A stretch of DNA of 28,179 bases from the UHGV virus genome UHGV-0383551. One strand, given 5' to 3'. Position 1 is the stretch's first letter, and each line of letters starts with the position of its first letter. A program made the position numbers and the translations under genes. Under the pieces are notes generated by a model. That model had not been told where the DNA came from. It searched no databases and was given only the letters and a program-made list of their open reading frames with translations. The DNA is from a virus. This document shows positions 1-24,534 of this stretch, piece by piece.

Positions 1-2085
1 ATTTATATCTTTGTTATATCCACTAACATTAATCCATCTTTTACCATCAATGTGATACCCGTAAATATTTCCGTCTGATTGTTCGTCAGGTGACTCTCTA
101 AGAACAATAGCATCTGCTCCAGACGACCATTGTATTTTTGTATCTGTAGGCCTCCAGTTCTTTATAATGAACGAACCATCAGTAAACTCCGTTTTTATTT
201 GTCTATTGTCTACAAATGCGTCTCTTGGTTTAAACTCACTTGTGTTAACGCTGCTCTGAAGATCAGAAGCAAAAAATCTAAGATTTCCTGTATAACCCTG
301 AGTCTCGGTCTGGTTATACGCAATCATAATTCCATTTTCAAACTCAGATGATGTTATTTTAACATCACGGCAATCACCAAAAATGCAATTTCCTTTATCA
401 AATGTTGTTTGAGCTTTGAATTTATCAAACCTTAAATTACGAACAGGGAAACCATCAACCTCTAATGCAAAGGATGCAGGAAGGCCAAAGTATTCTGATG
501 GCTTACCTGATGTATGATCAAGAGTAGTGGCTACTGTATTCTCAAAAACAGTCCCGCTAAAATTATTACCAATTGACGGAAACCTGATTACACTTATTGT
601 ACCTTGTATTTCAGGAGAAATACCAGATAGTGTGATGTTAGCTCCATCAAATGATGCATCTGAATACGTATATACTGATTCACTGCCAGCAATTTTAAAC
701 TGTTTAACTGAAGTTATTCTCATCGACTTTTTATGTTTAAATGTCACTGAGCTTTCAGTATTACTTACAAGATCAATCTGAGGGCTATTCCTTATCGCGA
801 TCCCTGACTGGACATAAACGTTATTAAAGTGCGTTTTTTCAGGATTTCCCTTCATTGAAAGGCTCCCGTCATTTTCTGTCAGTAGTAGTCCTTTTACCCT
901 CCAATAGCCGACAATCTGTACGTTATCAATAACTGAATCACAGCTATCGTATACATGCAACCCTATATCCCAGTCATCACCCAATGAATAAGAATCAGGG
1001 TTATTGTATCCTTCAATACCATTTTTACTTACCATTATTCTCAGGTTGCGTAACTGTGATGCCCTGTTGATACTAACAGCTACGCTCATGGCTTTTGGTG
1101 TAGCAGGAGTAACACCTACAGAATCTTCATTTGTAAACTCAGTGAACTTACAAGATATCCCTTCAACAATTTTAACTGGTCTTTCATTAGAGATGTTAAA
1201 AAAATATTTGTTTTTTTCTCCATCACCAGTAAATACAAGATGGGTTCCTTTACTCCAACTTTTTAATAATCTTTCAGGCGCTGGTCTATATGTATCCCAA
1301 TAATCAATGCCATCACCAATTAAAGACACTCCAGGAGGCACATCTATGTTCTTAGAAATCATCCATTTACCTGCAGGTATTCTAACGACACTTGCACCAG
1401 AATTTATCGCATTAATTAACCATTCAGACGCATCAACTTCAAAATTTAATGCAGCATATCTTTGCTCAAACGGAACAAAATCAAGAGCGTTAACGTTATC
1501 CCGCATCTTATCCTGGAACGTTCGGTATACTGCTCCAGAACCATACTGAATAAACCAACCAAAACCACCAACAACTCCGGCGATTGCAGCATCAACATAA
1601 TTGCGCATTGATCGATTATTTACAGCATCCTGCTCAAGTGATGGATCTGCAAGGTTAGAAATTTTGTTTTGCTTTGCATCGTAATATTTTGCAAGCAAAG
1701 ATGGTTTCATCAATGCACGTCTGAACCATCCAAAACATTGCTGGATCAGCATCGTCAGATAGTCAAAGGCATCTTCATGCACCTCGGGGAAAAATTTTCC
1801 CTGATTACGAAGATCAGTCTCCTGCACCACATCAAGCACACGATCTATCGTAATTCGCCATCCAGCAGCAAGCGGCGACGGAAGAACAACAGAACCGCCA
1901 CTATAAGTGCCCGCCCCTGTTACCGTATAACCGGTATCCAGAACCAATTCTGTTACGTTCCCGTTCAGGTCAGACACCTGAACAACCAGGTCGGATTTTT
2001 TGAAAATACGGAAGGTATACGGAAATGATGTCGTAGCTCCGTTACCTGTGTATTCGTTGTGGTCAACTTCGGTTGAGACCGTCAT
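1..2085 (-). CDS. Tailspike / receptor-binding tail protein, partial (start codon at 2085; ORF still open at window position 1, about 695 codons inside the window)
   Basis: Hand translation from ATG 2085 (GGAG about 8 nt upstream) gives MTVSTEVDHNEYTGNGATTSFPYTFRIFKKSDLVVQV..., which I recall as the conserved N-terminal particle-binding domain of epsilon15/phiV10-type tailspikes. The frame check at the window edge (codons ending ...GYHIDGKRWINVSGYNKDIN) is consistent with one uninterrupted frame. The distal part is AT-rich and Asn/Ser/Gly-rich, typical of beta-helix receptor-binding domains. The ORF track lists no minus-strand ORF here because the gene runs off the window. Confidence 0.65.
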   Translation of the reverse strand, partial: MTVSTEVDHNEYTGNGATTSFPYTFRIFKKSDLVVQVSDLNGNVTELVLDTGYTVTGAGTYSGGSVVLPSPLAAGWRITIDRVLDVVQETDLRNQGKFFPEVHEDAFDYLTMLIQQCFGWFRRALMKPSLLAKYYDAKQNKISNLADPSLEQDAVNNRSMRNYVDAAIAGVVGGFGWFIQYGSGAVYRTFQDKMRDNVNALDFVPFEQRYAALNFEVDASEWLINAINSGASVVRIPAGKWMISKNIDVPPGVSLIGDGIDYWDTYRPAPERLLKSWSKGTHLVFTGDGEKNKYFFNISNERPVKIVEGISCKFTEFTNEDSVGVTPATPKAMSVAVSINRASQLRNLRIMVSKNGIEGYNNPDSYSLGDDWDIGLHVYDSCDSVIDNVQIVGYWRVKGLLLTENDGSLSMKGNPEKTHFNNVYVQSGIAIRNSPQIDLVSNTESSVTFKHKKSMRITSVKQFKIAGSESVYTYSDASFDGANITLSGISPEIQGTISVIRFPSIGNNFSGTVFENTVATTLDHTSGKPSEYFGLPASFALEVDGFPVRNLRFDKFKAQTTFDKGNCIFGDCRDVKITSSEFENGIMIAYNQTETQGYTGNLRFFASDLQSSVNTSEFKPRDAFVDNRQIKTEFTDGSFIIKNWRPTDTKIQWSSGADAIVLRESPDEQSDGNIYGYHIDGKRWINVSGYNKDIN

Positions 2086-2188
2086 GTTAAATCTCCAGAT
2101 AGTCGCAGCACCCGTTGCGCCGCATATCTGGTTATTCTATTACCTGAAAAACCACATATGGATAGAAAGACTGTAAATACGAATAGAT

Positions 2189-2205
2189 ATTACCTTTCGG
2201 GTAAT
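2189..2205. promoter_or_regulatory. Inverted-repeat operator-like motif ATTACC-TTTCG-GGTAAT (copy 1 of 4)
   Basis: Read directly from the sequence. Sits in the divergent intergenic region between the tailspike start (2085, minus) and the small plus-strand gene (2281). Confidence 0.6.
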
Positions 2206-2243
2206 TTGCAAAACGTGCTGGATAGCAAACAAATTATTTGATA

Positions 2244-2259
2244 CTGTATAAATATACAG
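2244..2259 (+). promoter_or_regulatory. LexA (SOS) box CTGTATAAATATACAG
   Basis: Matches the CTGT-N8-ACAG consensus with an AT-rich spacer in 15 of 16 positions (with flanks: TACTGTATAAATATACAGTT). Lies 22-37 bp upstream of the ATG at 2281 and overlaps the likely promoter core. Confidence 0.75.
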
Positions 2260-2280
2260 TTATTACATGGAGAAGATAAG

Positions 2281-2538
2281 ATGCAGCAGTATCACTATCC
2301 ACTGGAAGACGGATTTACCGAAAGGATTCACACGCCGGGAGGCGTCAGGTCACTGGTGGAGGGATCGCACTTGATGAAATTACTCCGGGATCTCGATAAG
2401 GATGGATTTAATGTCGATGGCCCACTTGCCGAACTGACTGCACTGATTAACTACGTCACCAGCTCACAGATGTCTATGCAGGATCTACAAACACATCTCG
2501 ACTATTGTGCCGAACAATTACGAAAACAAACCAGATAA
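2281..2538 (+). CDS. Small (85 aa) LexA-controlled protein, paralogous to the C-terminal domain of the downstream Bro-N antirepressor; candidate SOS-inducible antirepressor (Tum/Gifsy-antirepressor-like logic)
   Basis: ORF with GGAG 8 nt upstream of the ATG and a LexA box immediately upstream. Residues GVRSLVEGSHLMKLLRDLDKDGFNVDGPLAELTALINYVTS...DLQTH align by eye with SGVLGLTENSLLMNLLNQLQEDGHDVSGAAAELTTMFCYIVG...DIQTH at the C-terminus of the 2851-3537 protein. Confidence 0.6.
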   Translation: MQQYHYPLEDGFTERIHTPGGVRSLVEGSHLMKLLRDLDKDGFNVDGPLAELTALINYVTSSQMSMQDLQTHLDYCAEQLRKQTR

Positions 2539-2568
2539 GGTTTGCAATTACCAAATGGAGTGCTTATA

Positions 2569-2585
2569 TTTACCTTTGCGGTAAA
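2569..2585. promoter_or_regulatory. Inverted-repeat motif TTTACC-TTTGC-GGTAAA (copy 2 of 4), nested inside a longer inverted repeat GGAGTGC...GCACTCC (2558-2600)
   Basis: Read directly from the sequence; lies between the small SOS gene and the antirepressor gene. Confidence 0.55.
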
Positions 2586-2677
2586 TTTACATCGCACTCC
2601 TCTTGTGCCATAGTAATCGGGCACTGGCAAAATCCAGTGCCGGGATTGGCGTCCCGAGTTACTACAGAGGCACATAT

Positions 2678-2697
2678 GCCGCATAAGCGGTTTTTTT
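2678..2697 (+). terminator. Weak intrinsic terminator or attenuator: short GC stem (CCGC-ATAA-GCGG) followed by seven T
   Basis: Hairpin plus T-tract seen in the sequence. The stem is only 4-5 bp, so termination efficiency is uncertain. Confidence 0.35.
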
Positions 2698-2850
2698 ATG
2701 TGTAAAGCGCACCTATTCTATGGTGGGCTGTGTGGGGGCACCGAAAGGTGCGCCGGGTCCTTTGTAGCCGGTTACGCCAACCCTGCACAGTTCACCACCA
2801 ACCGATTGGCGTCGGTAGTGGTGATTAACCTAACTACAAAGGTGATCGCT

Positions 2851-3537
2851 ATGACTGCTAACGTAACCCCATCTGTTTTTCATTTTGAATCAGAAGCAAC
2901 CATTCGAGCCATTGTTATTGATGGAAATCCTTGGTTTGTTGCCAAAGACGTTATTAAAGCTCTTCAACTGACAAACCCCACTATGTCAATAAAATCTCTT
3001 GATGATGATGAAAGGGCTAAATTTAACTTAGGCCGTCAAGGCGAAACCAATATTATCAACGAGTCAGGCCTCTACACACTGTTCCTCCGCTGCCGCGATG
3101 CGGTGACACCAGGCACTACCCCCTACCGCTTTCGTAAATGGGTTACAGGTGAGGTTCTTCCTCAGATCCGCCGCACCGGAAGCTACATTAAAAACTCGCT
3201 CCCGCAGGAAGAACGCATAAAGATGGTTGCCGACCAGGTAGCCAACGCCACGGCGTCAGCAGTAATGCAGGCGATGAAGATAGAGAACAAAACCTACAGC
3301 GCCCCGCTGAAGCCCGGCTACCGCAGTTTGATTCACTCGCCGTCTGGTGTTCTCGGCCTGACGGAGAACTCACTGCTGATGAATCTGCTGAACCAGTTAC
3401 AGGAAGACGGGCACGACGTATCGGGCGCGGCGGCGGAACTGACCACCATGTTCTGCTACATCGTCGGTGTGAGTAAATGCCTGCGTGATATCCAGACCCA
3501 CGCGGAATACATCAACGACAAGGCAGGGGTCTTCTGA
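2851..3537 (+). CDS. Phage antirepressor with N-terminal Bro-N domain (228 aa from ATG 2851; the track ORF begins further upstream at 2698)
   Basis: The internal ATG at 2851 has AAGGTG 8 nt upstream. The N-terminus SVFHFESEATIRAIVIDGNPWFVAKDVIKALQL...GLYTLFLRCRDAVTPGTTPYRFRKWVTGEVLPQIRRTGSY matches my memory of the Bro-N/AntA domain pattern. The C-terminal domain is paralogous to the 2281-2538 product. Confidence 0.75.
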   Translation: MTANVTPSVFHFESEATIRAIVIDGNPWFVAKDVIKALQLTNPTMSIKSLDDDERAKFNLGRQGETNIINESGLYTLFLRCRDAVTPGTTPYRFRKWVTGEVLPQIRRTGSYIKNSLPQEERIKMVADQVANATASAVMQAMKIENKTYSAPLKPGYRSLIHSPSGVLGLTENSLLMNLLNQLQEDGHDVSGAAAELTTMFCYIVGVSKCLRDIQTHAEYINDKAGVF

Positions 3538-3602
3538 CAGAACGGCGGCACAGGGATGTGCCTTTAAATAATTCTGTACAGATTGCAGGTGAATAGCGTA
3601 CT

Positions 3603-3618
3603 ATTACCCCAAAGGTAA
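3603..3618. promoter_or_regulatory. Inverted-repeat motif ATTACC-CCAAA-GGTAA (copy 3 of 4), about 120 bp upstream of the two-gene cassette
   Basis: Read directly from the sequence. Confidence 0.55.
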
Positions 3619-3735
3619 GAAAGTTGATTTGTAACATTTTAGTTTGTAGTTACCGTGATGGTTTTGCTGCAGAAAGTTAACTAGTCAAAATCACACCGTA
3701 TGTAAGTCACGTCTGTTCCCGTATGGGAGGATGAT

Positions 3736-3954
3736 ATGTTTAAATTTGATATGCAACTCAACCAAAACTATGCCTCTTTTTACCATCCAGAAACTGGTAA
3801 AGCTGTTTTCGTTGACTCTTTCGATAATGAAGAATTTGATATCAGAATTGGGACCCTACGCCAAAGTAAGCATGTTGCTACTGTACGTGCATCCAATGAT
3901 GATGAATTAAATCAAAAAATAAGTGAGGCGACCTCCCGTTATCTATGTCTATAA
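3736..3954 (+). CDS. Hypothetical protein, 72 aa; first gene of an AT-rich two-gene accessory cassette
   Basis: ORF with a strong Shine-Dalgarno (GGGAGG 7 nt upstream). Overlaps the next gene by 10 nt. I recognise no domain. Confidence 0.55.
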   Translation: MFKFDMQLNQNYASFYHPETGKAVFVDSFDNEEFDIRIGTLRQSKHVATVRASNDDELNQKISEATSRYLCL

Positions 3955-4322
3955 CAGAACAACAACTCATTGATCTTGAGGATGAGATTAACGAGATCTT
4001 GCAAGAAGATGCGGCAAGAATTCACTTTTCATTTCACGCAGCATATGAACGCCTGAACGACGAGAGGAACAAACCGCCAATTACTCTTGCTGAGCTTGAA
4101 GATGTGTTTAAATCGTTTATATCTGCACATCTGCAGACTGTTTTGGATTTTGCTGAAGGTACAACTTTCACCATAAAGTGCAACAAAAGCGCCCTTCATT
4201 TTCCTTGCGCCATTGTACACGAAAGAGAGTTTGGGAAAACGTGGGTTATCCAAAACGTCATTACAGCCATGAGGAAAGTGGGATTCAAGTCTAAAGATTC
4301 TATTATCCTCGAAGTTAATTAA
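3945..4322 (+). CDS. Hypothetical protein, 125 aa, with an acidic N-terminal segment; second gene of the cassette
   Basis: The ATG at 3945 overlaps the stop of the upstream gene, suggesting translational coupling. An intrinsic terminator follows directly. I recognise no domain. Confidence 0.55.
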   Translation: MSITEQQLIDLEDEINEILQEDAARIHFSFHAAYERLNDERNKPPITLAELEDVFKSFISAHLQTVLDFAEGTTFTIKCNKSALHFPCAIVHEREFGKTWVIQNVITAMRKVGFKSKDSIILEVN

Positions 4323-4343
4323 GCCCGCACTGAGGGCTTTTTT
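4322..4343 (+). terminator. Intrinsic terminator (AGCCC-GCACTGA-GGGCT followed by TTTTT)
   Basis: Hairpin plus T-tract immediately after the stop codon at 4320-4322. Confidence 0.65.
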
Positions 4344-4415
4344 ATGGACGAAACAAAAGTCAGTGCTACACTCATTGACGCCACATTGAGGTGGCTTATA
4401 GATGGAAATTTCACA

Positions 4416-4577
4416 ATGAAAAAAGCATTTGCTGCACTGTTCGTTTTGTTGTCTCTGGTAGCTTCAACTCAGGCCTTTGCCGGTCGTTGTCAGCACGACA
4501 GCGACACTGCTGCTGACGGCTCCCGCTGCGGTGGGCGTTCTGCGGATTCCCGCCCGGGTGGCGGTGGCATTCGTTAA
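4416..4577 (+). CDS. Possible small secreted peptide (53 aa precursor) with a signal-peptide-like N-terminus MKKAFAALFVLLSLVASTQAFA and a Gly/Arg/Cys-containing mature part
   Basis: Internal ATG of track ORF 4344-4577. Very typical signal peptide with an AxA cleavage motif, but the RBS is weak and the ORF overlaps other open frames in a GC-rich stretch. Confidence 0.3.
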   Translation: MKKAFAALFVLLSLVASTQAFAGRCQHDSDTAADGSRCGGRSADSRPGGGGIR

Positions 4578-4599
4578 AAACAAGGCCGCGAAAGCGGCC
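4573..4599 (-). terminator. Intrinsic terminator ending the minus-strand virion operon (GGCCGC-GAAA-GCGGCC, T-tract on the minus strand)
   Basis: Perfect 6-bp GC stem with a GAAA loop. The plus-strand A-run at 4576-4580 gives the U-tract for the minus-strand transcript. Sits just downstream of the lipoprotein stop at 4609. Confidence 0.7.
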
Positions 4600-4600
4600 T

Positions 4601-4612
4601 GTGACATGTCAC
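4601..4612. repeat. 12-bp perfect palindrome GTGACATGTCAC (copy 1 of 3)
   Basis: Read directly. Its TCA triplet supplies the TGA stop of the minus-strand lipoprotein gene. Confidence 0.6.
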
Positions 4613-4989
4613 GCAACGCAATTATTACCGCGCCATGTAACATTTTTAATAATCTTATCAGCACCAAACTCAACGTAAACAGAGCAACTGAAATGGAGTG
4701 TATAACCGCCATCAGTTGTTGCGTATGTGTTTGAATATATAGTATTACCAATTAGATTAGACGTAGTATTATACGTTGTGGTTTGTGGTACGTTATAACT
4801 ACCAGAGCTTGAGTAAACATACACTCTGTTTCCATCTGGAGATGTAAGCTCTCCCTGAGGATACCCCCACTGCTGAACCATTGCGTCTATACTCTGCCCG
4901 CGCCACGTAAGCATATTTCTTTCAAACTGTGCAGCTGACTGGCATCCAACGAGAAGCATAAATCCAAAAATCAAAAATACTTTTCTCAT
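4609..4989 (-). CDS. Predicted lipoprotein (126 aa from ATG 4989), signal peptide MRKVFLIFGFMLLVGC with lipobox LVGC
   Basis: The internal ATG has AGGGG about 6 nt upstream; the track ORF starts at GTG 5025. Classic lipoprotein signal and lipobox cysteine. Last gene of the minus-strand late operon. Confidence 0.6.
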   Translation of the reverse strand: MRKVFLIFGFMLLVGCQSAAQFERNMLTWRGQSIDAMVQQWGYPQGELTSPDGNRVYVYSSSGSYNVPQTTTYNTTSNLIGNTIYSNTYATTDGGYTLHFSCSVYVEFGADKIIKNVTWRGNNCVA

Positions 4990-5074
4990 AATTACCCCTA
5001 TCATGGAAAAACAGCACCAATCCACAAATTAACTAGTTATTTTATTATTCTTCCGAACAATACAATTCCGAATA

Positions 5075-5197
5075 CTACAAAGCCGAACCATGCCGCTGCA
5101 CGCAACAGAGATTCCAATTGAAACCCATTTTTATCAAAATGTATGAATAGCATAAAAACGCTGCACATATTAGTACAATAAAAGTTATTTGAACCAT
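5075..5197 (-). CDS. Small hydrophobic membrane peptide, about 40 aa (MVQITFIVLICAAFLCYSYILIKMGFNWNLCCVQRHGSAL); frame assignment ambiguous
   Basis: Not in the ORF track because it is under 60 aa. AAGGAG sits immediately after the stop of the 824-aa gene and 5 nt before the ATG at 5197. The alternative track ORF 5037-5225 in another frame also encodes a hydrophobic segment but has no RBS. Confidence 0.35.
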   Translation of the reverse strand: MVQITFIVLICAAFLCYSYILIKMGFNWNLCCVQRHGSAL

Positions 5198-5208
5198 CAT
5201 ATCTCCTT

Positions 5209-7683
5209 TTATTGCGGAGTGACATCCTGTGGTCGCCACCAGTATGTCTGGTTAAACTCTTTCTTCGAACGTTGCTCCATTTTACGCAAATAGCCTGGTG
5301 AAAAATACTCCTGCATCTGGTTAAAGATCATGTGATCGAGAGCCGCCTTCAAGTACCAGAGATTCGCACCAGGCATCAAACCTTTCCCCAGCTTCACCAG
5401 ATCACCACCAGTCTGCTCACTCTTCCCTTCCACAGCATTTAACGGTATGCCCTGAGCAATCTTCACTACGTCATCAACCAGACCAGCTACCGGGCCAAGC
5501 ATCGACGCCAGCGCGCCGCTTCCGTACCTAGTGTGATCTGACAATAAAAAGTCACCGTAAAGGCCAAGACCACCACCTTTCAGTAGAGCACCAAGCCAGA
5601 ATTTTGCGGCATCTTCTCCTGTCATCTCTCGAGGATTACGACCAGACGCAAGGTCGTTAAGTTGCTGCGACAAAGCGCCAAGAATGGTCGTACTGGCAAT
5701 AAACGTCGCAATATATGCCGCACGCCCACCAGCAGACGGCATACCCATAGCGCGTGACCAGTGACGCATAACAACCGAGATAGGGAACGATTTAAACAGG
5801 AAAACACTTCTCGTTAATTCACCTTTCCATGTTCCACGCTGAATACCAGAACCGGTTATCAGTTGCTCACGTGCTCCCGGTGTAATAACAGCCATATCAA
5901 CTTCTTCAGTTACGGCACCGAGCAGTTTACGCATTGCCTCAAATTTCACGCGTTCAGGCTCACCAAGATGTTTAACTGCTGAATCAGAGATACGCATAAT
6001 GCTTTCCGGTGTCAGCATCGTATTATTACCGTTCCCCCAGTCCTCCTGTTTCGCCAGCTTCCATACGCTCCAGTCTGTGTCAGTAATCCCTTTGCTTTTC
6101 AGGATACGAAAATCAGAGTCATCGAGGCTACGAAGGTCTGGTGTCCGTGACACTACTTCTCCCAGGCTTCCCATCATGGTTACGCCATAGGCGCGCTTGT
6201 GCGCATCTGACCATGCTGTAAGCCCACTGGCACGCATTACCGCCGTTGCCGCCCAACGAGACACTGACGGCCCCATATTATCCATCGCCCAGCGGTTAAC
6301 GCTGCCAAGTAGAGATTCCATCGCCAGACCAGCGCGGCGCGCCCGCGCAAGTTCTGTACGGTTCGTTGGGTCCATAGCTTCAAGCTGGTTGCGGAATAAC
6401 TGGTTCATTGGAAGGTTGGTAACCTTCGCAGACAGATACATGGTTCCAAGATCAGAGAACGATGACAGCAACGCGGATCCGAGTCTGCTGGCAACCAGCC
6501 AGTTGCGGATATTGTCAGACCATCGCGCGATGTGCGGATTCGCTACAGGCTGTGTCTTTCCGGAAATAAAGTTGTACAGATTCTCTGTGTTGTTCGCCAG
6601 CCGCTCGACTTTACCGGTTTTACTCGGGTTAGCTGTTGCCGTTTCTGCCTTCACCTGATCAAGAAGAGAGCGGAAAACATGATCGGGGTTTGGGCCATAT
6701 GTTTCCACCAGTGCAATATCTTTACTGATACCTTCCAGGTGACCGACCATGATTTCCCATAGAGAGCGATCGCCATAAAGTTGCTGATATTGCAGATAGG
6801 AATCTGCATCTTTGAAATGTATCTGTCGTGATGCATTACCACGGTTAGCACGTGCGCCGGAAATTCGCATTCCGGTATCAGTAAGCTTATTCAGCCCACC
6901 AGTAGCGATCGTGTTATAAGCCTCTCCAAGAAATGAAGACAACTCGGCATCGTTCATCAGTTGTCCATCGGCTCGGATATAATATTTGCGATCCAGCTTA
7001 CCTATAACATCGCTAACCCACTTATCCTTTGATACTGCCCCAACCTTTTCCATAGAATGATGTTGAGGGATCCCCCAGTTTTCGAGATAGCCAATGTCCC
7101 CACCAGCATCATTAAACCGGCGGCGCAGCAGCTCTGTAACTTCTCTCCACGCCTTAGCACCGTTTCTTGCTTTAGCATTGCCAGTATTTTGCCCCCGCAT
7201 TTCATATACCAGGTCACGTACGCCCGCTTCATCTTCAAACAGACCAAAAAAGCGAGGATCAACTGCTTCGAATGCCTCCTGCAATTGACTCAATGCATAA
7301 TCACGGGTGGCTTTTGTTCTGGATTCAACAGAGAGGAAATTAGATTTACCGTCTGCATTAAAAGCTATAGTACGGTTAAGAGCGCCAAGTTTCCCATCAG
7401 CCCCTTGATAGCTATTGATAAATTTATCCAATCTCTGACGCGCGGCTATAGTGAGAGCCACACGACGTTTCTTTAATGCCGCTTCTCGCTGTAATTCTTC
7501 AGATGCCAATTGTGCTGCTCGATATAGCCGCTCTGATTCGGAAAGTTGTCGCCACGACATAGGGTCATCACGAGCAATGGAGCGCATATTTCGATAAATG
7601 CGGTCTTCAATGTTCTGTATTTCTCGCGCCGTTAACATGCGCTGCGCCGCCTGCTGAACCGCTTGTATACATTCCTGTCTCAT
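5209..7683 (-). CDS. Large internal virion / ejection protein (824 aa); by position, the distal part of a T7 gp16-like function
   Basis: Long ORF in the virion operon after the other internal proteins. Assignment is by synteny and size only. Confidence 0.5.
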   Translation of the reverse strand: MRQECIQAVQQAAQRMLTAREIQNIEDRIYRNMRSIARDDPMSWRQLSESERLYRAAQLASEELQREAALKKRRVALTIAARQRLDKFINSYQGADGKLGALNRTIAFNADGKSNFLSVESRTKATRDYALSQLQEAFEAVDPRFFGLFEDEAGVRDLVYEMRGQNTGNAKARNGAKAWREVTELLRRRFNDAGGDIGYLENWGIPQHHSMEKVGAVSKDKWVSDVIGKLDRKYYIRADGQLMNDAELSSFLGEAYNTIATGGLNKLTDTGMRISGARANRGNASRQIHFKDADSYLQYQQLYGDRSLWEIMVGHLEGISKDIALVETYGPNPDHVFRSLLDQVKAETATANPSKTGKVERLANNTENLYNFISGKTQPVANPHIARWSDNIRNWLVASRLGSALLSSFSDLGTMYLSAKVTNLPMNQLFRNQLEAMDPTNRTELARARRAGLAMESLLGSVNRWAMDNMGPSVSRWAATAVMRASGLTAWSDAHKRAYGVTMMGSLGEVVSRTPDLRSLDDSDFRILKSKGITDTDWSVWKLAKQEDWGNGNNTMLTPESIMRISDSAVKHLGEPERVKFEAMRKLLGAVTEEVDMAVITPGAREQLITGSGIQRGTWKGELTRSVFLFKSFPISVVMRHWSRAMGMPSAGGRAAYIATFIASTTILGALSQQLNDLASGRNPREMTGEDAAKFWLGALLKGGGLGLYGDFLLSDHTRYGSGALASMLGPVAGLVDDVVKIAQGIPLNAVEGKSEQTGGDLVKLGKGLMPGANLWYLKAALDHMIFNQMQEYFSPGYLRKMEQRSKKEFNQTYWWRPQDVTPQ

Positions 7684-7688
7684 TTAAT

Positions 7689-9491
7689 TTAACCTCTCAA
7701 GAAACACGCCACAGCGACATCAAACAGGCTGGAATCCTGTATTGCCTGCTCACTTTCCCTGTTCGCTTCATCCAGTGCTTCACGCGCACTGCGCGATTGT
7801 GGATTACCATCATCATCCAGCACGGTGATTATCATGTCAGGTGATTCAAGCAGCGAGTCTTCAGCTATGCGCAAATCAATATCTCCTGCCTGATCTGACA
7901 TCATTTTTTGTTCTGCCTGTTGCAATATTTTATCAGGCTCAAAAGGAGCTACTTCGTCTGGCGTCCTGACCTCTGCTGTTTTATAGAATGAAACAGCCTG
8001 AGCATTAAGTTCACTTTCTGCCTGCTGTCTCCGAGCCAGTTCTGCTCGAGCTTCAAAAAACTGACCGCCAGGCTCATGCGGTGCCAACGCGTTACGAGAA
8101 AATTCCAGGCGTTCTTGTGCCTGCCGGATTCGTTGGTCAATATCGCGAAGTCTGGCCTGTTTATCTGATCGAGCACGAGATAAAGCCTTACCGCTACCGG
8201 CTGGATCTTCTGCAAGAATTTGTGCGCGCTGTTCAGTGAGATTTTCAATAATTCGTTGGCTATTAGCGATTTCAGACTGGTAAACCTGTCTATCGCCACG
8301 CGGCAAAAGCTGCGCGGCCTGTTCTTCAAGCAACCGATTTTCTATAGCGCGCGCCGTTACTCCATCATCTACAGATGACAGAGCCTCATTAACTGCCTGA
8401 GACAGCAGACTCTTGCGTCCAGGAATTTCACTGAAAGATGCAGACTCAACAATGCTGGCAACGTCTACAGGTCTCCCCTGGCTAACATCAGACATGGCTT
8501 TTCGCAGAGCCTGAATGTGCGAATTACGCGAAAGCACGTTGATCGGCACGCCGGGAGCAATATCAATTTCAGCATGATGAGCGGCATTCGCCGCCAGTGC
8601 AGCATCGATATCAACTGGTGAAAAATTTGGTGCGCTTGTAGACTCGCCGCGAGAGTTAATAAATCTGCCGACACCACCAAACGCCACCCCAAGAACAGCA
8701 TCAATAGCAATTGCCTGTCGATCCAACACATCATACTGGTTAGCCATTTCGCTATAGCCACCATCACGAAGCGTTTTTGCAGTAAGCCCACGCTGTGCCA
8801 TACCGAACGCAATATTTGTACCTGCGGCATAGGCAATATCTGGCGTTGCACGTACTGCTGTTGCTGCGGCGCGTCGCACTGAACTTTCACCCGTCCGCGC
8901 AAGCTGAGCCGCCACACCTTCCGCCAGCGCACCACCAGCACGTAACCCGAGGCTCATAGGGATCAGTGTTCCGGCACCAGCAGTAATACCCTGCACTAAT
9001 CCCGCTTCCTGCGCCGTCCTGAAATCAACACCCTGTGCTGTAAGCCGTTCAAACTCAGAAAAACCCTGTAGAGAAGTTACCGCCGCAGCACCTCCGACCG
9101 GACCACCGAGCGTTGTACCGACAACAGCCTGCCCGCCCATATCGAACAACCCATAAAGGACCTGCCCGGCGGTTCCGGTTGTCGCGGCATCAGGCGTCAG
9201 CCGCTTAACCTGCTGCTCTGCTAGTTTTCTCTGCTCAGCAATGTATGAAACTGAAGTGTCATTGATCGAGGTGTTTTCGTTAACAAACTGAGCAATCGGG
9301 GATACGATTTTATCCATCCCTGCCCATAGCAACTGATCTGGCTTTGCCACCAGCCCGGAGTACAAACCAGACAATGCCGCTCCTACAGCATTGTCGAAAA
9401 AACCAACATCGCTGTTAAAACCAGCTGGATTTGATGCTGCTTCGTCAAGCTGCTGATTCTGGTTTACTGGATTAAGGCCAAAGTAACTCAT
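7689..9491 (-). CDS. Internal virion / ejection protein (600 aa) with a Gly/Ala-rich hydrophobic N-terminal third
   Basis: ORF overlapping the upstream gene by 4 nt. Composition is typical of membrane-interacting ejection proteins. No domain confirmed. Confidence 0.5.
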   Translation of the reverse strand: MSYFGLNPVNQNQQLDEAASNPAGFNSDVGFFDNAVGAALSGLYSGLVAKPDQLLWAGMDKIVSPIAQFVNENTSINDTSVSYIAEQRKLAEQQVKRLTPDAATTGTAGQVLYGLFDMGGQAVVGTTLGGPVGGAAAVTSLQGFSEFERLTAQGVDFRTAQEAGLVQGITAGAGTLIPMSLGLRAGGALAEGVAAQLARTGESSVRRAAATAVRATPDIAYAAGTNIAFGMAQRGLTAKTLRDGGYSEMANQYDVLDRQAIAIDAVLGVAFGGVGRFINSRGESTSAPNFSPVDIDAALAANAAHHAEIDIAPGVPINVLSRNSHIQALRKAMSDVSQGRPVDVASIVESASFSEIPGRKSLLSQAVNEALSSVDDGVTARAIENRLLEEQAAQLLPRGDRQVYQSEIANSQRIIENLTEQRAQILAEDPAGSGKALSRARSDKQARLRDIDQRIRQAQERLEFSRNALAPHEPGGQFFEARAELARRQQAESELNAQAVSFYKTAEVRTPDEVAPFEPDKILQQAEQKMMSDQAGDIDLRIAEDSLLESPDMIITVLDDDGNPQSRSAREALDEANRESEQAIQDSSLFDVAVACFLRG

Positions 9492-19004: not shown

Positions 19005-19297
19005 TCCTGTTCACTGGCCTCTTTGGCCATCTTCAAATACTGTTCAGGGCAATGCGCCATAACGCGCTGAAACAGTTCCAGCGCCAGATTGCGTTGCCCC
19101 TCATTAAATGCCATTGCCATAGCATCCATCGGAGAGATAGCGGAAAACACCCGGCCTTTCTCCAGCACCGACCAGACAACGCGACGCCCCTGTTCACTGC
19201 TCATGACAAAGCAAATGTCATCAATTTCACGCTGTGCCATGTCACGTTGCTTACGGGCGTTTTCTTCTTTCAGTTGATCGTCTTCGTAATCTGTCAT
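19001..19297 (-). CDS. Hypothetical small protein (98 aa) between portal and scaffold
   Basis: ORF with 4-nt overlaps to both neighbours, suggesting translational coupling. Confidence 0.45.
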   Translation of the reverse strand: MTDYEDDQLKEENARKQRDMAQREIDDICFVMSSEQGRRVVWSVLEKGRVFSAISPMDAMAMAFNEGQRNLALELFQRVMAHCPEQYLKMAKEASEQE

Positions 19298-20987: not shown

Positions 20988-21194
20988 TTACTGACCAAGC
21001 AGCGTTTTACCGCTGGTATTAGCGGTTGATGTGTCGCCCTGAGAACCGGTAAGCAGCGTAGAACTACGACCAGCAGCAGCGCGACGGCGACGTGTTTCTT
21101 CGTCGCGGGCATCAACAACGGCGGCATCCTGCTCCTGTGGTGCTGCCTGAACTTCTGGTGTTGCAGGCACTGACGGTGAGCTACCCATGCACAT
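20988..21194 (-). CDS. Small low-complexity protein (68 aa) preceding the portal gene
   Basis: The start context ACGGAGTCATTGAT-ATG nearly duplicates the portal start context CCGGAGTCATTGAA-ATG. An alternative overlapping frame (20975-21214) was judged less likely. Confidence 0.4.
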   Translation of the reverse strand: MCMGSSPSVPATPEVQAAPQEQDAAVVDARDEETRRRRAAAGRSSTLLTGSQGDTSTANTSGKTLLGQ

Positions 21195-21283
21195 ATCAAT
21201 GACTCCGTACGCAATTAAATGATCACCAATTTAACCACATATGATTTATTGATCGTAGATAGTTGACATTTAACGCATGAATT

Positions 21284-21299
21284 ATTACCTTTCAGGTAA
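21284..21299. promoter_or_regulatory. Inverted-repeat motif ATTACC-TTTCA-GGTAA (copy 4 of 4)
   Basis: Read directly from the sequence; about 90-105 bp upstream of the minus-strand ORF start at 21194. Confidence 0.55.
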
Positions 21300-21621
21300 G
21301 TAAAGTGTTCATTCCGGTTATTAACCTGACTGGCTTATCGTTAAATTGAACAGGTGGAGTGAGCTTTTATTTTGAGCAGTACGGCGTATGGCACATGCGC
21401 CGATAGCGGTCTGGATACGTTTAAGGGGCACCCTCCCTTGCTCGGGCAAACGAACCAGGTAGCCGGAATGTGCAAGTCGAGCGGTTTTATTCCGCGCACG
21501 GGGATTCACCATCCCGGCGATTCGGTGTGACGCCTCGGAAGAGACGAGGGTACAACGATGAGAGCATTTATGGAGCCGCGACAAAGTGTGGCGCCTTAAC
21601 AGGCTAAGTGCTCTCAGCGTT

Positions 21622-21698
21622 GTGGCATTAGCTCAGTTGGACAGAGCAACCGCCTTCTAAGCGGTTGGTCGCAGGTTCGAATCCTGCATGCCACGCCA
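21622..21698 (+). tRNA. tRNA-Arg, anticodon UCU (reads AGA), 77 nt including CCA
   Basis: Folded by hand: 7-bp acceptor stem GTGGCAT/ATGCCAC, D-arm GCTC...GAGC, anticodon stem ACCGC/GCGGT with loop CTTCTAA, T-arm GCAGG-TTCGAATC-CTGC, discriminator G, encoded CCA. The acceptor stem differs from my recollection of host argU, suggesting a phage-borne copy. Confidence 0.85.
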
Positions 21699-21896: not shown

Positions 21897-22253
21897 ATGA
21901 ACGACCAGCAAATCGAAAAAGAAATCGTTGAGAAAGGCAAAACCGCTCCGCGAGTTACGCCTCAATATATCGAAAGCATCATTCTTGAAGAGCATTTCTT
22001 TACTGCTTATGACGGCATTCGTGCTGCCAATATGGGCGTTGGCGATACGTGGACAGCGCATAAATCTACAGACCTCCTTACTTTCTGCGTACTGGTGCTG
22101 AAGAATGGCTTCACCGTCACCGGAGAGAGTGCCTGTGCAAGCCCGGAAAACTTTGATGCAGAAATTGGTCGGAAAATTGCCCGGCAGAATGCTGTAAACA
22201 AAATCTGGATGCTTGAAGGTTACTTGCTGAAGCAGAAGTTAAGCGAGCAATAA
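21897..22253 (+). CDS. Conserved-looking phage hypothetical protein (118 aa), a moron inserted between the terminase and portal genes
   Basis: ORF on the opposite strand to the flanking late genes, with AAGGTGAG 6 nt upstream and its own downstream terminator. I could not place the family with confidence. Confidence 0.55.
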   Translation: MNDQQIEKEIVEKGKTAPRVTPQYIESIILEEHFFTAYDGIRAANMGVGDTWTAHKSTDLLTFCVLVLKNGFTVTGESACASPENFDAEIGRKIARQNAVNKIWMLEGYLLKQKLSEQ

Positions 22254-23819: not shown

Positions 23820-24412
23820 TGATTACCATCCTGACGTTCTTTGAGTCGCTTCCTGGCTGCTGCTATGCGATCAGCAATTGTCACATTCACATTAACATCC
23901 AGACGTTCTTTGAACGCGTTGACATCAACATGCTTACCAATCAGCTCAAGGTTCTTCACCTTGTCAGGCCATTTAATTTTTTTGAGGATTGTCTCTATCG
24001 AATCCTCGTTCATGTTCATGATGGTCGATGACAGATCAAAGCCACTAAGCGTAGTGCGCCAGATTTTCGGCCACTCACGGATTGGTTTAAGGCTCCCATC
24101 GTCGTTGAGGATGTCGATCACGTCCATCTGGTCGATCTGCACCAGGCGCATGAGAACGTAATCAGCACTGACGCGCATTCGTTTGTTGCGCTCCTCCATC
24201 AACTCGGCAATCCGTTTTTGAATGCGTTCATCGCGCATCATGACACTGGCTTTAACTGCCGCTGTATTTGGGGAGAATCCTGCGTTAATCGCTGCCTGAG
24301 TCTGGTTTTCAGGCGTTTTGATGTATGACTGGCAATAAGCCTCCTGCATTGCTGTTAGTGGCTTAAATTGCGTTGATTTGCGTTTATAGGTTTTAGGTTC
24401 AGCAGGCATCAT
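23816..24412 (-). CDS. Terminase small subunit (about 198 aa from the ATG-ATG at 24412; the track ORF extends to 24490)
   Basis: Segment KPLTAMQEAYCQSYIKTPENQTQAAINAGFSPNTAAVKASVMMRDERIQKRIAELMEE resembles phage small terminase subunits, and the gene sits directly upstream of the large subunit. The internal start has a GGTGG RBS; the longer start would run through the intergenic repeats. Confidence 0.7.
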   Translation of the reverse strand: MMPAEPKTYKRKSTQFKPLTAMQEAYCQSYIKTPENQTQAAINAGFSPNTAAVKASVMMRDERIQKRIAELMEERNKRMRVSADYVLMRLVQIDQMDVIDILNDDGSLKPIREWPKIWRTTLSGFDLSSTIMNMNEDSIETILKKIKWPDKVKNLELIGKHVDVNAFKERLDVNVNVTIADRIAAARKRLKERQDGNQ

Positions 24413-24420
24413 AACCACCG

Positions 24421-24452
24421 TGGTAATAGTTACCGTTTTGGTAATAGTACCA
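24421..24452. repeat. Tandem copies of TGGTAATAGT (24421-24430 and 24439-24448), each within a GGTAA...TACC inverted repeat, immediately upstream of the small terminase start
   Basis: Read directly. A 10-mer repeated within 30 bp is not statistically striking alone; noted because of its position and because it shares GGTAA/TTACC half-sites with the ATTACC-N5-GGTAA motif. Confidence 0.35.
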
Positions 24453-24522: not shown

Positions 24523-24534
24523 GTGACATGTCAC
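24523..24534. repeat. 12-bp perfect palindrome GTGACATGTCAC (copy 3 of 3)
   Basis: Read directly. Its TCA triplet supplies the TGA stop of the minus-strand ORF 24531-24878. Confidence 0.6.

What the first reader, a model, noticed from the sequence alone, without database searches (positions are those of the whole stretch)
2086..2280. Divergent control region combining a LexA box, the ATTACC-N5-GGTAAT palindrome and a CATATGTGGTT element
The roughly 195-bp region between the tailspike start (minus strand) and the SOS gene (plus strand) contains three elements: ATTACC-TTTCG-GGTAAT (2189-2205), the LexA box (2244-2259) and AACCACATATG (2150-2160). The palindrome-plus-CATATGTGGTT pair recurs in the same orientation upstream of the minus-strand small ORF and portal genes, at 21284-21299 and 21233-21243. 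On the minus strand both regions read TTACC(C/T)GAAAGGTAAT, then a 28-nt or 40-nt spacer, then CATATGTGGTT. This looks like a shared promoter and activator-site architecture for the tailspike and portal operons, with the tailspike copy sharing its palindrome with the divergent SOS promoter.
Basis: seen in the sequence. Interest (0 to 1): 0.55.

Follow-up and report, generated by a model that had tools for sequence, protein, structure and literature searches.

The report
Prophage repressor operator plus late-promoter box
This is the ordinary control region between the tailspike and SOS-inducible antirepressor genes of a phiV10/epsilon15-type prophage: the palindrome is the prophage repressor's operator, not an activator site. 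The CATATGTGGTT element is a conserved, apparently unannotated box in the core of the late promoters.

Summary
The window is a Uetakevirus (phiV10/epsilon15-like) prophage.

- **LexA box.** The box at 2242-2260 overlaps the promoter of a gene 88% identical to the SPC32H antirepressor Ant. It aligns to the position that distinguishes SPC32H from SPC32N. This switch is already known.
- **Palindrome.** ATTACC-N5-GGTAAT is annotated in the epsilon15 record as the repressor binding site. It occurs five times exactly in the window (0.02 expected), plus a sixth copy with one mismatch. In relatives it marks nearly every transcription unit and clusters around rep. It is an operator, not an activator site.
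- **CATATGTGGTT ("M box").** This is half of a palindrome, AACCATATATGGTT. Within the window its pairing with the operator is only marginally non-random (about 5%). Across 14 genomes from about 10 genera it is conserved. It lies 7 nt upstream of a -10-like hexamer in three late promoters (tailspike, gp3/portal, lysis), where a -35 would be.
- **Spacing.** The operator-to-M distance is fixed for each promoter although the spacer sequence diverges.

The shared late-promoter architecture is real.

The parts
1..2085 (-). 5' part of the tailspike gene. The start codon is CAT at 2083-2085 on the plus strand, and the Shine-Dalgarno sequence CTGGAGA is at 2092-2098.
   Evidence: Synteny with the annotated tailspike genes of epsilon15, SPC32H and phiV10. 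CCGTCAT and TCTCCAG are conserved in 8 genomes.
2095..2131 (-). Hairpin in the tailspike leader RNA. Its 3' arm reaches the Shine-Dalgarno region. Its 5' arm is the inverted M-like copy CATATCTGGTT (2123-2133, plus strand).
   Evidence: Fold energy -20.3 kcal/mol, z = -5.06, 0 of 200 shuffles as stable. Only a 4-bp GC core is kept in the 8-genome consensus, with no compensatory changes.
2134..2144 (-). Inferred -10 region of the tailspike late promoter. The minus strand reads GGTAATAGAAT, giving TAATAG (2137-2142) or TAGAAT (2134-2139), overlapped by a repressor half-site GGTAAT (2139-2144).
   Evidence: ATTCTATTACC is nearly invariant in 8 genomes and in 45 distinct E. coli-clade sequences. 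It lies a fixed 5-7 nt from the M box. No transcript start has been mapped, so this is an inference.
2150..2163 (-). M box. The minus strand reads ATCCATATGTGGTT, with the 11-mer CATATGTGGTT at 2150-2160. The consensus palindrome is AACCATATATGGTT.
   Evidence: Conserved in 8 of 8 tailspike regions. The same box occurs upstream of gp3/portal in 14 of 14 genomes and upstream of the lysis operon in 5 of 5.
2161..2188 (.). 28-nt AT-rich spacer between the M box and the operator. Its length is fixed but its sequence is not conserved.
   Evidence: six genomes, no length change; 8 genomes; no gaps in this block.
2189..2205 (.). Operator of the prophage repressor Rep, ATTACC-TTTCG-GGTAAT.
   Evidence: The orthologous site in epsilon15 (19895-19911) is annotated protein_bind 'repressor'. 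Five copies against 0.02 expected. The position is syntenic in all relatives.
2219..2224 (+). Inferred -35 (TGGATA) of the ant promoter, inside the invariant block GCTGGATAG.
   Evidence: The block is conserved in 8 genomes. It lies 17 nt upstream of TACTGT. This is an inference.
2242..2260 (+). LexA (SOS) box TACTGTATAAATATACAGT. It overlaps the inferred -10, TACTGT, at 2242-2247.
   Evidence: Unique in the window with 0.00 expected. It aligns to the box in which SPC32N differs from SPC32H, ACAG to AAAG.
2281..2538 (+). ant, a small antirepressor of 85 aa. Its Shine-Dalgarno GGAG is at 2269-2272.
   Evidence: 88% identical to the annotated SPC32H Ant, in the same position, and matches phrog_450.
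20988..21194 (-). gp3, first gene of the head operon. The portal gene follows at 19294-20973.
   Evidence: Synteny with epsilon15 gp3 and gp4, phrog_831 and tblastn.
21214..21229 (-). Inferred -10 block of the gp3/portal late promoter. The minus strand reads TTGGTGATCATTTAAT, whereas almost all relatives read TTGGTAATAATTTAAT.
   Evidence: Invariant block in 14 genomes. None of the 80 E. coli-clade relatives fetched carries the window's double change.
21233..21246 (-). M box of the gp3/portal promoter. The minus strand reads AATCATATGTGGTT.
21263..21291 (+). Divergent sigma-70-like promoter TTGACA-17-TACCTT, pointing at tRNA-Arg (21622-21698) and a gp49/gp66-family gene (21897-22253).
   Evidence: TTGAC is invariant and there are no indels in 14 genomes. 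Coordinates, the tRNA, and the Pfam match.
21284..21300 (.). Rep operator ATTACC-TTTCA-GGTAAG. It overlaps the -10/+1 of the divergent promoter and lies 40 nt from the M box.
   Evidence: The orthologous epsilon15 site (2931-2947) is annotated 'repressor'.
2529..2585 (+). Second Rep-controlled promoter, downstream of ant. It comprises an M-like AACCAGATAAGGTT (2529-2542), a -35 TTGCAA (2542-2547), a -10 TATATT (2565-2570) and the operator TTTACC-N5-GGTAAA (2569-2585).
   Evidence: Promoter scan, sequence and coordinates.
3603..3619 (.). Further Rep operator copy, ATTACCCCAAAGGTAAG.
24411..24445 (.). Two adjacent Rep operator copies immediately upstream of the small terminase gene (24411-24427 and 24429-24445).
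   Evidence: The epsilon15 site at 12-27 is annotated 'repressor'.

Best explanation
The region is the divergent control region between the tailspike gene and the small antirepressor gene ant of a phiV10/epsilon15-type (Uetakevirus) prophage. It holds three kinds of site with different jobs.

1. **SOS switch.** The ant promoter (inferred TGGATA-17-TACTGT) is covered by a LexA box. DNA damage removes LexA, Ant is made and it inactivates the prophage repressor Rep. This is the switch described for phage SPC32H.
2. **Repressor operator.** ATTACC-N5-GGTAAT is one copy of the Rep operator. Rep is a tetramer with two DNA-binding pairs. Its operators mark almost every transcription unit of these genomes, including the three late operons.
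3. **Late-promoter core.** CATATGTGGTT is the better-conserved half of a 14-bp palindrome, AACCATATATGGTT (the M box). It lies 7 nt upstream of a -10-like hexamer, where a -35 element would be. With that hexamer it forms the core of the tailspike, gp3/portal and lysis late promoters.

What is inferred rather than shown:
- In the lysogen, Rep at the upstream operator keeps these promoters silent. It may do so together with the GGTAAT half-site over the -10, through a contact that depends on geometry.
- After Rep is removed, the M box stands in for the missing -35, most likely as the site of a phage-encoded DNA-binding protein.
- That protein is unidentified. The Cro-position HTH protein is the leading candidate.
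For: **Identity of the phage and of ant.**
- The window is 100% identical to Escherichia phage Phi05_1387 B over bases 1-8000 and about 96% to phiV10.
- The window Ant is 88% identical to the annotated SPC32H Ant.

**LexA box.**
- It is unique in the window.
- It aligns to the box where SPC32N differs from SPC32H by one base.

**Operator.**
- Seven such sites are annotated 'repressor' in epsilon15, three of them beside rep.
- Copies sit at syntenic intergenic positions in 6 phage genomes and 8 prophages of other genera.
- In early promoters the operator is fused to the -10, as xxxxAT|TACC.
- Rep of SPC32H is described as a tetramer with an N-terminal DNA-binding domain that binds palindromic sites (PMC9638917; PMC9986798).

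**M box.**
- It is present upstream of tailspike, gp3 and the lysis operon in every genome examined.
- It is always followed after 7 nt by TAATAG, TAATAA or TATAAT/TATGAT.
- Only 38-39 nt separate it from the gp3 and lysis start codons, so the promoter core must be there.
- Nothing is conserved upstream of the operator, whereas the block from operator to ATG is nearly invariant with no indels.
- Within the E. coli clade, variation avoids M and the -10 block.
- The operator-to-M spacing is 45, 57 and 48 nt start to start. It is constant for each promoter although the tailspike and lysis spacers have diverged.

**Natural variants.**
- BUCT711 has its holin gene 8 nt after the tailspike gene and has no such module.
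- In ZX5 the lysis intergenic has lost the operator but keeps TTCATATATGGTTTA.

**Shape of the late promoters.** They look like the rep-proximal early promoter (TTGATT..TTCACC-N5-GGTAATAAT) with the -35 and the left half-site replaced by M.
Against: - No transcript start is mapped, so the -10 assignments are inferences.
- The consensus scan found no sigma-70-type promoter on the late strand at either site.
- An M box centred near -26 is an unusual place for an activator.
- M-like copies also occur at other positions: abutting a -35 at about -41 (window 2529-2542, and upstream of gp40 in relatives), and inside the spacer of strong early promoters. One simple role does not fit all copies.
- In ZX5 the TATAAT that follows M elsewhere is absent.
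- The operator centre lies about 57-70 bp from the inferred late -10. Rep bound there would not occlude the promoter by itself.
- The primary papers on epsilon15 and SPC32H could not be read. I cannot exclude that they define the operators differently or already describe M.
Confidence: 0.6

Rival explanations
1. The M box is an auxiliary, low-affinity repressor site rather than a positive promoter element. Its half-sites (AACC..GGTT, spacing 6) are a variant of the Rep operator core (TACC..GGTA, spacing 5). One DNA-binding pair of a Rep tetramer sits on the strong upstream operator. The other pair sits on M or the adjacent GGTAAT half-site and covers the late-promoter core. Alternatively the Cro-position paralogue binds M as a repressor.
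For: - M and the operator share the ACC/GGT core.
- Every M copy in five complete genomes has an operator within about 60 bp.
- In five of the seven M-bearing promoter contexts examined (tailspike, gp3, P_RuvC, P_bro, phiV10 pL) a Rep half-site follows M after 4-5 nt.
- The operator-to-M spacing is strictly conserved while the spacer sequence drifts, as expected for a bridging protein.
- In the gp3 promoter the GGTAAT half-site lies exactly where the right half of a second operator would be at the 62-bp pair spacing seen elsewhere.
- Rep is a tetramer whose domain pairs are about 100 Å apart, with a domain of a fold that its describers link to DNA looping (PMC9986798).
- M in the spacer of strong early promoters fits repression.
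Against: - All recognisable operators use a 5-nt spacing, and none uses 6.
- The rep/gp39 intergenic region has three operators and no M.
- ZX5 keeps M without any operator nearby.
- The operator-to-half-site distances in the three late promoters (61, 73 and 64 nt) are not in helical phase with each other.
- The late promoters have no -35, so something must supply that function.
Confidence: 0.2
2. Transcription of the late operons starts at the operator itself, using the TAAT(A/T)N formed by its right half-site as the -10. The M box would then lie in the 5' untranslated RNA, at about +35 to +57, and act at the RNA level or as a pause or roadblock site.
For: - The operator right half gives TAATAT in the window tailspike copy and TAATAA or TAATTT elsewhere.
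- The rep-proximal early promoter uses exactly such a GGTAATAAT as its -10.
- In the window, M and its inverted copy could pair in RNA (-13.7 kcal/mol, z = -2.8).
Against: - There is no conserved -35, and no conservation at all, upstream of the operator.
- The sixth base of the would-be -10 is often not T.
- The inverted second copy exists only in the E. coli clade.
- ZX5 keeps M but has no operator.
- The stable leader hairpin begins just after the M-proximal -10, as expected if transcripts start there.
Confidence: 0.07
3. The repeated pair has no function of its own. The two upstream regions share sequence only through common descent, duplication or recombination between module boundaries.
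For: - Within the window the co-occurrence is only marginally non-random (4.9%).
- Exact 11-mer repeats are common.
Against: - The two regions share nothing but the operator and M. The spacers differ in length and sequence.
- Both elements persist at fixed positions in about 10 genera while flanking DNA is unalignable.
- A third, independent copy exists at the lysis operon.
Confidence: 0.05
4. One reading: the palindrome ATTACC-N5-GGTAAT is an activator site shared by the late operons and by the divergent SOS promoter.
For: It does lie upstream of both late operons, at about -60 to -70, which is a possible activator position.
Against: - It is annotated as the repressor site in epsilon15.
- It is densest around rep, and it overlaps the -10/+1 of early promoters and of the divergent tRNA promoter.
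- It also occurs directly in front of terS and around the second antirepressor gene.
Confidence: 0.03
5. The palindrome is a bidirectional transcription terminator hairpin between convergent or divergent units.
For: It can form a 6-7 bp hairpin.
Against: - The hairpin is weak, at -4.2 to -5.0 kcal/mol, and 6-27 of 200 shuffles fold as well.
- It has no T-run, and the terminator scan did not report it.
- The arms are invariant in sequence while the loop varies. That is the pattern of a protein site, not of a structure.
- It lies upstream of genes, not downstream.
Confidence: 0.01

Closest known systems
SPC32H LexA-Ant-Rep antirepression switch (Kim & Ryu, J Virol 2013; Kim et al., PNAS 2016). 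The papers were not readable here. Their content is recalled from my own knowledge and from citing papers PMC9638917 and PMC9986798.
   Same: - The small antirepressor is orthologous (88% identity).
- It occupies the same position, divergent from the tailspike gene.
- The LexA box is at the aligned position, including the base that differs in the constitutively inducing SPC32N.
- The same 17-bp palindrome sits between the two genes.
   Different: - The associated Rep of this E. coli clade is only about 42% identical to SPC32H Rep.
- Rep is not encoded in the window.
- This prophage carries a second antirepressor module, absent from SPC32H.
Repressor binding sites annotated in the epsilon15 genome record AY150271.2 (Kropinski et al., Virology 2007).
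   Same: The sequence is identical (ATTACC-N5-GGTAAT) and the positions are syntenic: upstream of terS, upstream of gp3/portal, and between tailspike and gp19.
   Different: - The window has extra copies flanking the Bro-N antirepressor insertion (2569-2585 and 3603-3619).
- None of the five fully annotated genome records examined (epsilon15, phiV10, SPC32H, Tyrion, BUCT554) carries a feature for the M box or for late promoters.
Activator-dependent phage promoters in which a conserved box replaces the -35. Examples are the P1 late promoters (Lpa, a palindrome centred near -22) and the T4 middle promoters (MotA box near -30). These are recalled from memory and serve as a lead, not a test.
   Same: A -10-like hexamer, no recognisable -35, and a conserved box at a fixed short distance upstream. 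The box is repeated at several operons of one phage.
   Different: - The box sequence is unrelated.
- No activator has been identified.
- M-like copies also occur at -41 and inside the spacers of strong early promoters.
- Each late promoter additionally carries a repressor operator at a fixed distance.
Mycobacteriophage L5 stoperators, that is, many repressor sites spread through a genome (recalled from memory).
   Same: A lysogeny repressor with a dozen or more sites across the genome, including in front of late genes.
   Different: - The sites here are palindromic.
- They sit at the 5' ends of transcription units rather than within them.
- They show no orientation bias.

Membership tests
SPC32H-type LexA-controlled antirepressor switch | A small Ant protein encoded divergently from the tailspike gene | tested here: met
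   The 85-aa ORF at 2281-2538 is 88% identical to the annotated SPC32H Ant.
SPC32H-type LexA-controlled antirepressor switch | A LexA box overlapping the ant promoter | tested here: met
   TACTGTATAAATATACAGT at 2242-2260 has no chance expectation. It aligns to the SPC32H box, where SPC32N carries ACAG to AAAG. The promoter hexamers are inferred.
SPC32H-type LexA-controlled antirepressor switch | A cognate Rep repressor with an HTH domain and a tetramerisation domain | tested here: inconclusive
   rep is not in the window. The record that matches the window (KM389360) encodes a Rep 100% identical to phiV10 Rep, which is about 42% identical to SPC32H Rep. Pfam finds HTH_3 in it.
SPC32H-type LexA-controlled antirepressor switch | Ant binds Rep and releases it from DNA | not testable with these tools
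   This needs biochemistry.
Uetakevirus Rep operator | A 17-bp palindrome ATTACC-N5-GGTAAT at syntenic intergenic positions | tested here: met
Uetakevirus Rep operator | Enrichment around the repressor gene and overlap with early-promoter -10/+1 | tested here: met
   In relatives there are three sites on each side of rep and -10 hexamers fused to ATTACC. In the window the sites at 2569-2585 and 21284-21300 overlap -10 hexamers.
Uetakevirus Rep operator | Bound by Rep | not testable with these tools
   The only support is the GenBank annotation and secondary citations.
LexA (SOS) box | CTGT-N8-ACAG with an AT-rich centre, close to the 20-bp consensus TACTGTATATATATACAGTA | tested here: met
   18 of 20 positions match the consensus, which I quote from memory. 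The box is unique in the window.
Activator-dependent late promoter with a box in place of the -35 | A conserved box at a fixed distance from a -10, with no -35, repeated at several late operons | tested here: met
   M, then 7 nt, then TAATAG/TAATAA/TATAAT at three operons in all genomes. No sigma-70 pair was found by the scan.
Activator-dependent late promoter with a box in place of the -35 | Transcription starts downstream of that -10 and depends on a phage factor that binds the box | not testable with these tools
   No 5'-end data and no identified binder. The candidate gp49 homologue is not linked to M.
Intrinsic terminator | A GC-rich stem followed by a T-run | tested here: not met
   The stem is weak and AT-rich, there is no T-run, and the scan did not report it.

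The most novel reading that the evidence does not exclude
The M box (AACC-N6-GGTT) is the site of a second, still unidentified Uetakevirus DNA-binding protein. That protein could be the Cro-position paralogue of the Rep DNA-binding domain, recognising a spacing variant of the Rep operator (TACC-N5-GGTA). Placed at -26, -41 or against the -10, the box would switch on the late operons and modulate early ones. The whole genome would then be run by two related palindromes at fixed mutual distances.
Probability: 0.25. Interest if true: 0.55.

Novelty: new member of a known kind. Interest (0 to 1): 0.35.

Why it matters
Most of the region is an orthologue of a switch that is already understood. Its value is correct annotation: a LexA-controlled antirepressor, and repressor operators in front of the late genes.

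The part that may add something is the M box. Late transcription in epsilon15/phiV10-type phages has no described regulator, as far as I could find. These phages are used as reporter and typing phages for E. coli O157 and Salmonella.

A defined late-promoter core, at a fixed distance from a repressor operator, gives a direct handle. It can be used to find the missing factor and to build tightly silenced, inducible phage promoters.

Tried and rejected
**Literature**
- The three primary papers (Kim & Ryu 2013; Kim et al. 2016; Kropinski et al. 2007) are not held.
- Searches for the motif strings and for Uetakevirus promoters found nothing relevant.

**More diverse relatives**
- Two viral-contig scans, with gp3 and with Ant, returned only near-identical E. 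coli relatives. They were useful only for within-clade variation.

**Candidate M-binding proteins**
- *gp49 homologue (24534-24869, phrog_536 'transcriptional regulator').* Six prophages of other types carry a homologue that is 65-87% identical. They have neither M nor the operator within 10 kb. Rejected as the likely binder, though not excluded.
- *gp40.* Its N-terminal zinc-knuckle domain is widespread in unrelated phages and in endonucleases, so it is uninformative.
- *Rep.* Homologues are confined to this genus, so co-occurrence cannot separate Rep from other candidates.

**Other readings considered and dropped on reading the sequence**
- Sigma-54 (the GG/GC spacing is wrong).
- An IHF site.
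- A DnaA box.
- NrdR, MqsA and PhoP boxes.

**RNA structure**
- A consensus fold of the tailspike leader keeps only a 4-bp stem with no covariation.
- The terminator reading of the palindrome fails.
Full report
**What the window is.** Bases 1-8000 are 100% identical to Escherichia phage Phi05_1387 B and about 96% to phiV10, over the 53% of the query that aligns. They are 72-80% identical to epsilon15, SPC32H/SPN1S, Tyrion and BUCT554, all of the genus Uetakevirus. In the records of these phages the region between the tailspike gene and a small divergent gene is syntenic with window 2086-2280.

**Observation.**
- The palindrome lies at 2189-2205 and at 21284-21300.
- AACCACATATG lies at 2150-2160 and at 21233-21243.
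- The LexA box lies at 2242-2260.
- The minus-strand spacers are 28 and 40 nt.

TTACC-N5-GGTAA occurs five times in the window (also at 2570, 3604 and 24430) against 0.02 expected. A sixth, one-mismatch copy lies at 24411-24427. The LexA box has no chance expectation.

The 11-mer repeat by itself is ordinary.
- The window has 218 exact 11-mer repeat pairs, against about 102 in shuffles.
- CATATNTGGTT with up to one mismatch gives 5 hits against 1.9 expected.
- 4.9% of random five-site sets share an 11-mer within 70 nt.

The pairing is therefore established by comparison with relatives, not by the window alone.

**The SOS gene and the LexA box.** ORF 2281-2538 is 88% identical to the annotated antirepressor Ant of SPC32H. 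From my own knowledge of Kim & Ryu 2013, Ant is repressed by LexA and inactivates the non-cleavable repressor Rep. The paper could not be read here. In that account SPC32N differs from SPC32H by a base in the LexA box.

The deposited sequences confirm this directly. In the aligned intergenic region SPC32N has CTGT-N8-AAAG where SPC32H has CTGT-N8-ACAG. That box aligns with window 2242-2260.

An invariant block, GCTGGATAG, lies 17 nt upstream. It gives an inferred promoter TGGATA(2219-2224)-17-TACTGT(2242-2247). This part of the finding is real and already known.

**The palindrome.** The epsilon15 record annotates seven ATTACC-N5-GGTAAT sites as 'protein_bind: repressor, lysogeny'.
- One lies before terS.
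- One lies before gp3/portal.
- One lies between tailspike and gp19.
- Three lie beside the repressor gene.
- One lies before the RuvC-like gene.

Scanning epsilon15, phiV10, SPC32H, Tyrion and BUCT554 finds the motif at the same syntenic places. It also finds copies before the lysis cassette and in the rep/gp39 intergenic region, and several pairs exactly 62 bp apart.

Eight Uetakevirus-like prophages were fetched through a gp49 homologue. They come from Citrobacter (two), Superficieibacter, Pseudocitrobacter, Klebsiella, Scandinavium, Kluyvera and Buttiauxella. They show the same pattern, although their Rep proteins are only 41-59% identical to phiV10 Rep.

In early promoters the operator is fused to the -10, for example GATTAT|TACC, TTTAAT|TACC and, in the window, TATATT|TACC at 2565-2573. 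Citing papers describe SPC32H Rep as a tetramer that binds palindromic DNA through N-terminal domains. Its domain pairs are about 100 Å apart, and its tetramerisation domain has a fold that its describers link to DNA looping (PMC9638917; PMC9986798).

The palindrome is thus the Rep operator. It is not a terminator. The hairpin is weak (-4.2 to -5.0 kcal/mol), there is no T-run, and the arms are invariant while the loops vary.

**CATATGTGGTT.** Aligning the late-gene upstream regions shows the same box, here called M, before three operons: tailspike, gp3/portal and the lysis cassette. It is present in every genome examined. In the lysis promoters of phiV10 and Tyrion it is the perfect palindrome AACCATATATGGTT. 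In most E. coli-clade tailspike promoters it reads CCATATATGGTT.

*Position relative to the -10.*
- M is always followed after 7 nt by TAATAG (tailspike), TAATAA (gp3) or TATAAT/TATGAT (lysis).
- For gp3 and the lysis operon only 38-39 nt remain before the start codon, so the promoter core has to be there.
- M then spans about -33 to -20, and no -35 is recognisable.

*Conservation in the gp3 region.*
- A 14-genome alignment shows nothing conserved upstream of the operator.
- From the operator to the ATG the block is nearly invariant and has no indels, including ..TAT.TGGTTAAATTGGTAATAATTTAAT.

*Conservation in the tailspike region.*
- In an 8-genome alignment the conserved islands are the Shine-Dalgarno sequence, a GC-rich leader core, ATTCTATTACC, M, the operator, GCTGGATAG and the LexA box.
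- The 28-nt spacer between M and the operator keeps its length but not its sequence.

*Spacing and variants.*
- The start-to-start operator-to-M distances are 45 (tailspike), 57 (gp3) and 48 (lysis), each constant across genera.
- Among 55 and 45 distinct E. coli-clade sequences, variation avoids M and the -10 block.
- BUCT711 has its holin gene 8 nt after the tailspike gene and lacks the module. ZX5 has lost the operator before the lysis genes but keeps TTCATATATGGTTTA.

*Annotation and literature.* None of the five fully annotated genome records examined marks M or any late promoter. No paper in the library mentions it.

**Complications.** M-like copies are not confined to late promoters.
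- In relatives one abuts the -35 of the promoter that follows the terminator after the Cro-position gene (GGTTGATC).
- One fills the spacer of the promoter before the RuvC/DUF1064 gene.
- In phiV10-type phages, but not in epsilon15, one fills the spacer of the leftward early promoter.
- In the window, AACCAGATAAGGTT (2529-2542) abuts the -35 TTGCAA of the promoter downstream of ant.
- M is followed after 4-5 nt by a Rep half-site in five of the seven promoter contexts examined (tailspike, gp3, P_RuvC, P_bro and the phiV10 leftward early promoter). Its core (ACC-N6-GGT) resembles the operator core (ACC-N5-GGT).

These facts keep alive the rival that M is an auxiliary repressor site bridged to the strong operator by the Rep tetramer. 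Against that rival:
- All clear operators use a 5-nt spacing.
- The rep/gp39 region has no M.
- ZX5 keeps M without an operator.

**Who binds M.** This could not be settled.
- *The gp49 homologue (24534-24869).* It matches phrog_536 'transcriptional regulator' and has a Cys-rich C-terminus. It has no Pfam or PDB match. Homologues 65-87% identical occur in six prophages of other types that have no M.
- *The Cro-position protein.* It resembles the Rep N-terminal HTH only weakly (E = 0.004).
- *gp40.* It carries a widespread zinc-knuckle domain.
- *Rep.* Homologues are confined to this genus, so co-occurrence gives no discrimination.

**The portal copy.** Here the operator overlaps the -10/+1 of a conserved plus-strand promoter, TTGACA(21263-21268)-17-TACCTT(21286-21291). 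Its TTGAC is invariant in 14 genomes. A tRNA-Arg(TCT) gene lies 330 nt downstream on that strand, at 21622-21698. A gp49/gp66-family gene follows at 21897-22253. In this region the palindrome is therefore positioned as a classical operator on the divergent promoter. It lies about 70 bp from the inferred late -10.

**Verdict.** The LexA/ant part and the operator are already known for this genus.

The remaining item of interest is the M box. It is a conserved core element of the late promoters, not marked in the five fully annotated genome records examined, at a fixed distance from a Rep operator. Its binder is unknown.

The best-supported mechanism is as follows. Steps 1 and 2 follow the SPC32H literature and were not tested here. 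Steps 3 and 4 are inferred.
1. DNA damage removes LexA from the ant promoter.
2. Ant is made and takes Rep off its operators.
3. The late promoters are released from Rep.
4. M substitutes for the missing -35.

Noticed in passing
window 2542-3537: Downstream of ant lies a second antirepressor module resembling the P1/P7 immI region. A promoter TTGCAA-17-TATATT is overlapped by a Rep operator (2569-2585). It is followed by a full-length isrK-like sRNA (2621-2697, 74 bits), a full-length C4 antisense RNA (2716-2802, 79.5 bits) and a Bro-N domain ORF (2698-3537). The listed start of that ORF overlaps C4 and is probably too early. The prophage therefore has one antirepressor under LexA and another under Rep plus an antisense RNA.
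   Followed up: partly
window 21622-21698 (+): A tRNA-Arg(TCT) gene lies between the portal operon and the terminase genes. It is on the strand served by the operator-overlapped TTGACA-17-TACCTT promoter at 21263-21291. SPC32H has a tRNA-Arg annotated at the syntenic place.
   Followed up: partly
window 21219-21227 (minus strand GGTGATCAT): The otherwise invariant -10 block of the gp3/portal promoter (GGTAATAAT in 12 of 14 genomes from different genera; none of 80 E. coli-clade relatives carries the window's form) has two private substitutions here. A third lies nearby (gatCaataaat instead of gatAaataaat). These could be promoter-down changes in a decaying prophage.
   Followed up: partly
window 2095-2131 (-): The tailspike leader forms a strong RNA hairpin (-20.3 kcal/mol, z = -5.1). 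Its 3' arm reaches the Shine-Dalgarno region, and its 5' arm is an inverted M-like copy (CATATCTGGTT, 2123-2133). The outer stem is specific to the E. coli clade, and only a 4-bp GC core is shared by all genera.
   Followed up: partly
related loci L004-L008 and L169-L181: Rep operators occur as pairs exactly 62 bp apart start to start (left of rep, and before the RuvC/DUF1064 gene) in every genome examined. They also occur as adjacent pairs 17-18 bp apart (rep/gp39 region, and before terS). This points to fixed binding geometries for the Rep tetramer.
   Followed up: no
related loci L004-L008 and L169-L181: Rep proteins diverge to 41-59% identity between clades, yet the operator half-site ATTACC is unchanged. 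Ant stays 88% identical between the E. coli and Salmonella clades. The immunity relationships among these phages may be less distinct than the Rep divergence suggests.
   Followed up: no
window 24534-24869 (-); loci L176-L180 and L182: The last gene before terS encodes a 112-aa protein. It has a basic N-terminus that looks ribbon-helix-helix-like and a C-terminal Cys cluster (phrog_536 'transcriptional regulator'). It has no Pfam or PDB match. Homologues that are 65-87% identical also occur in prophages of unrelated types in Pantoea, Enterobacter, Apirhabdus and Escherichia sp.
   Followed up: partly
window 24411-24445: Two adjacent operator copies lie directly in front of the terS start codon. 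The proximal one covers the ribosome-binding region. Rep could therefore block terminase expression at or after the end of the early-right operon.
   Followed up: no
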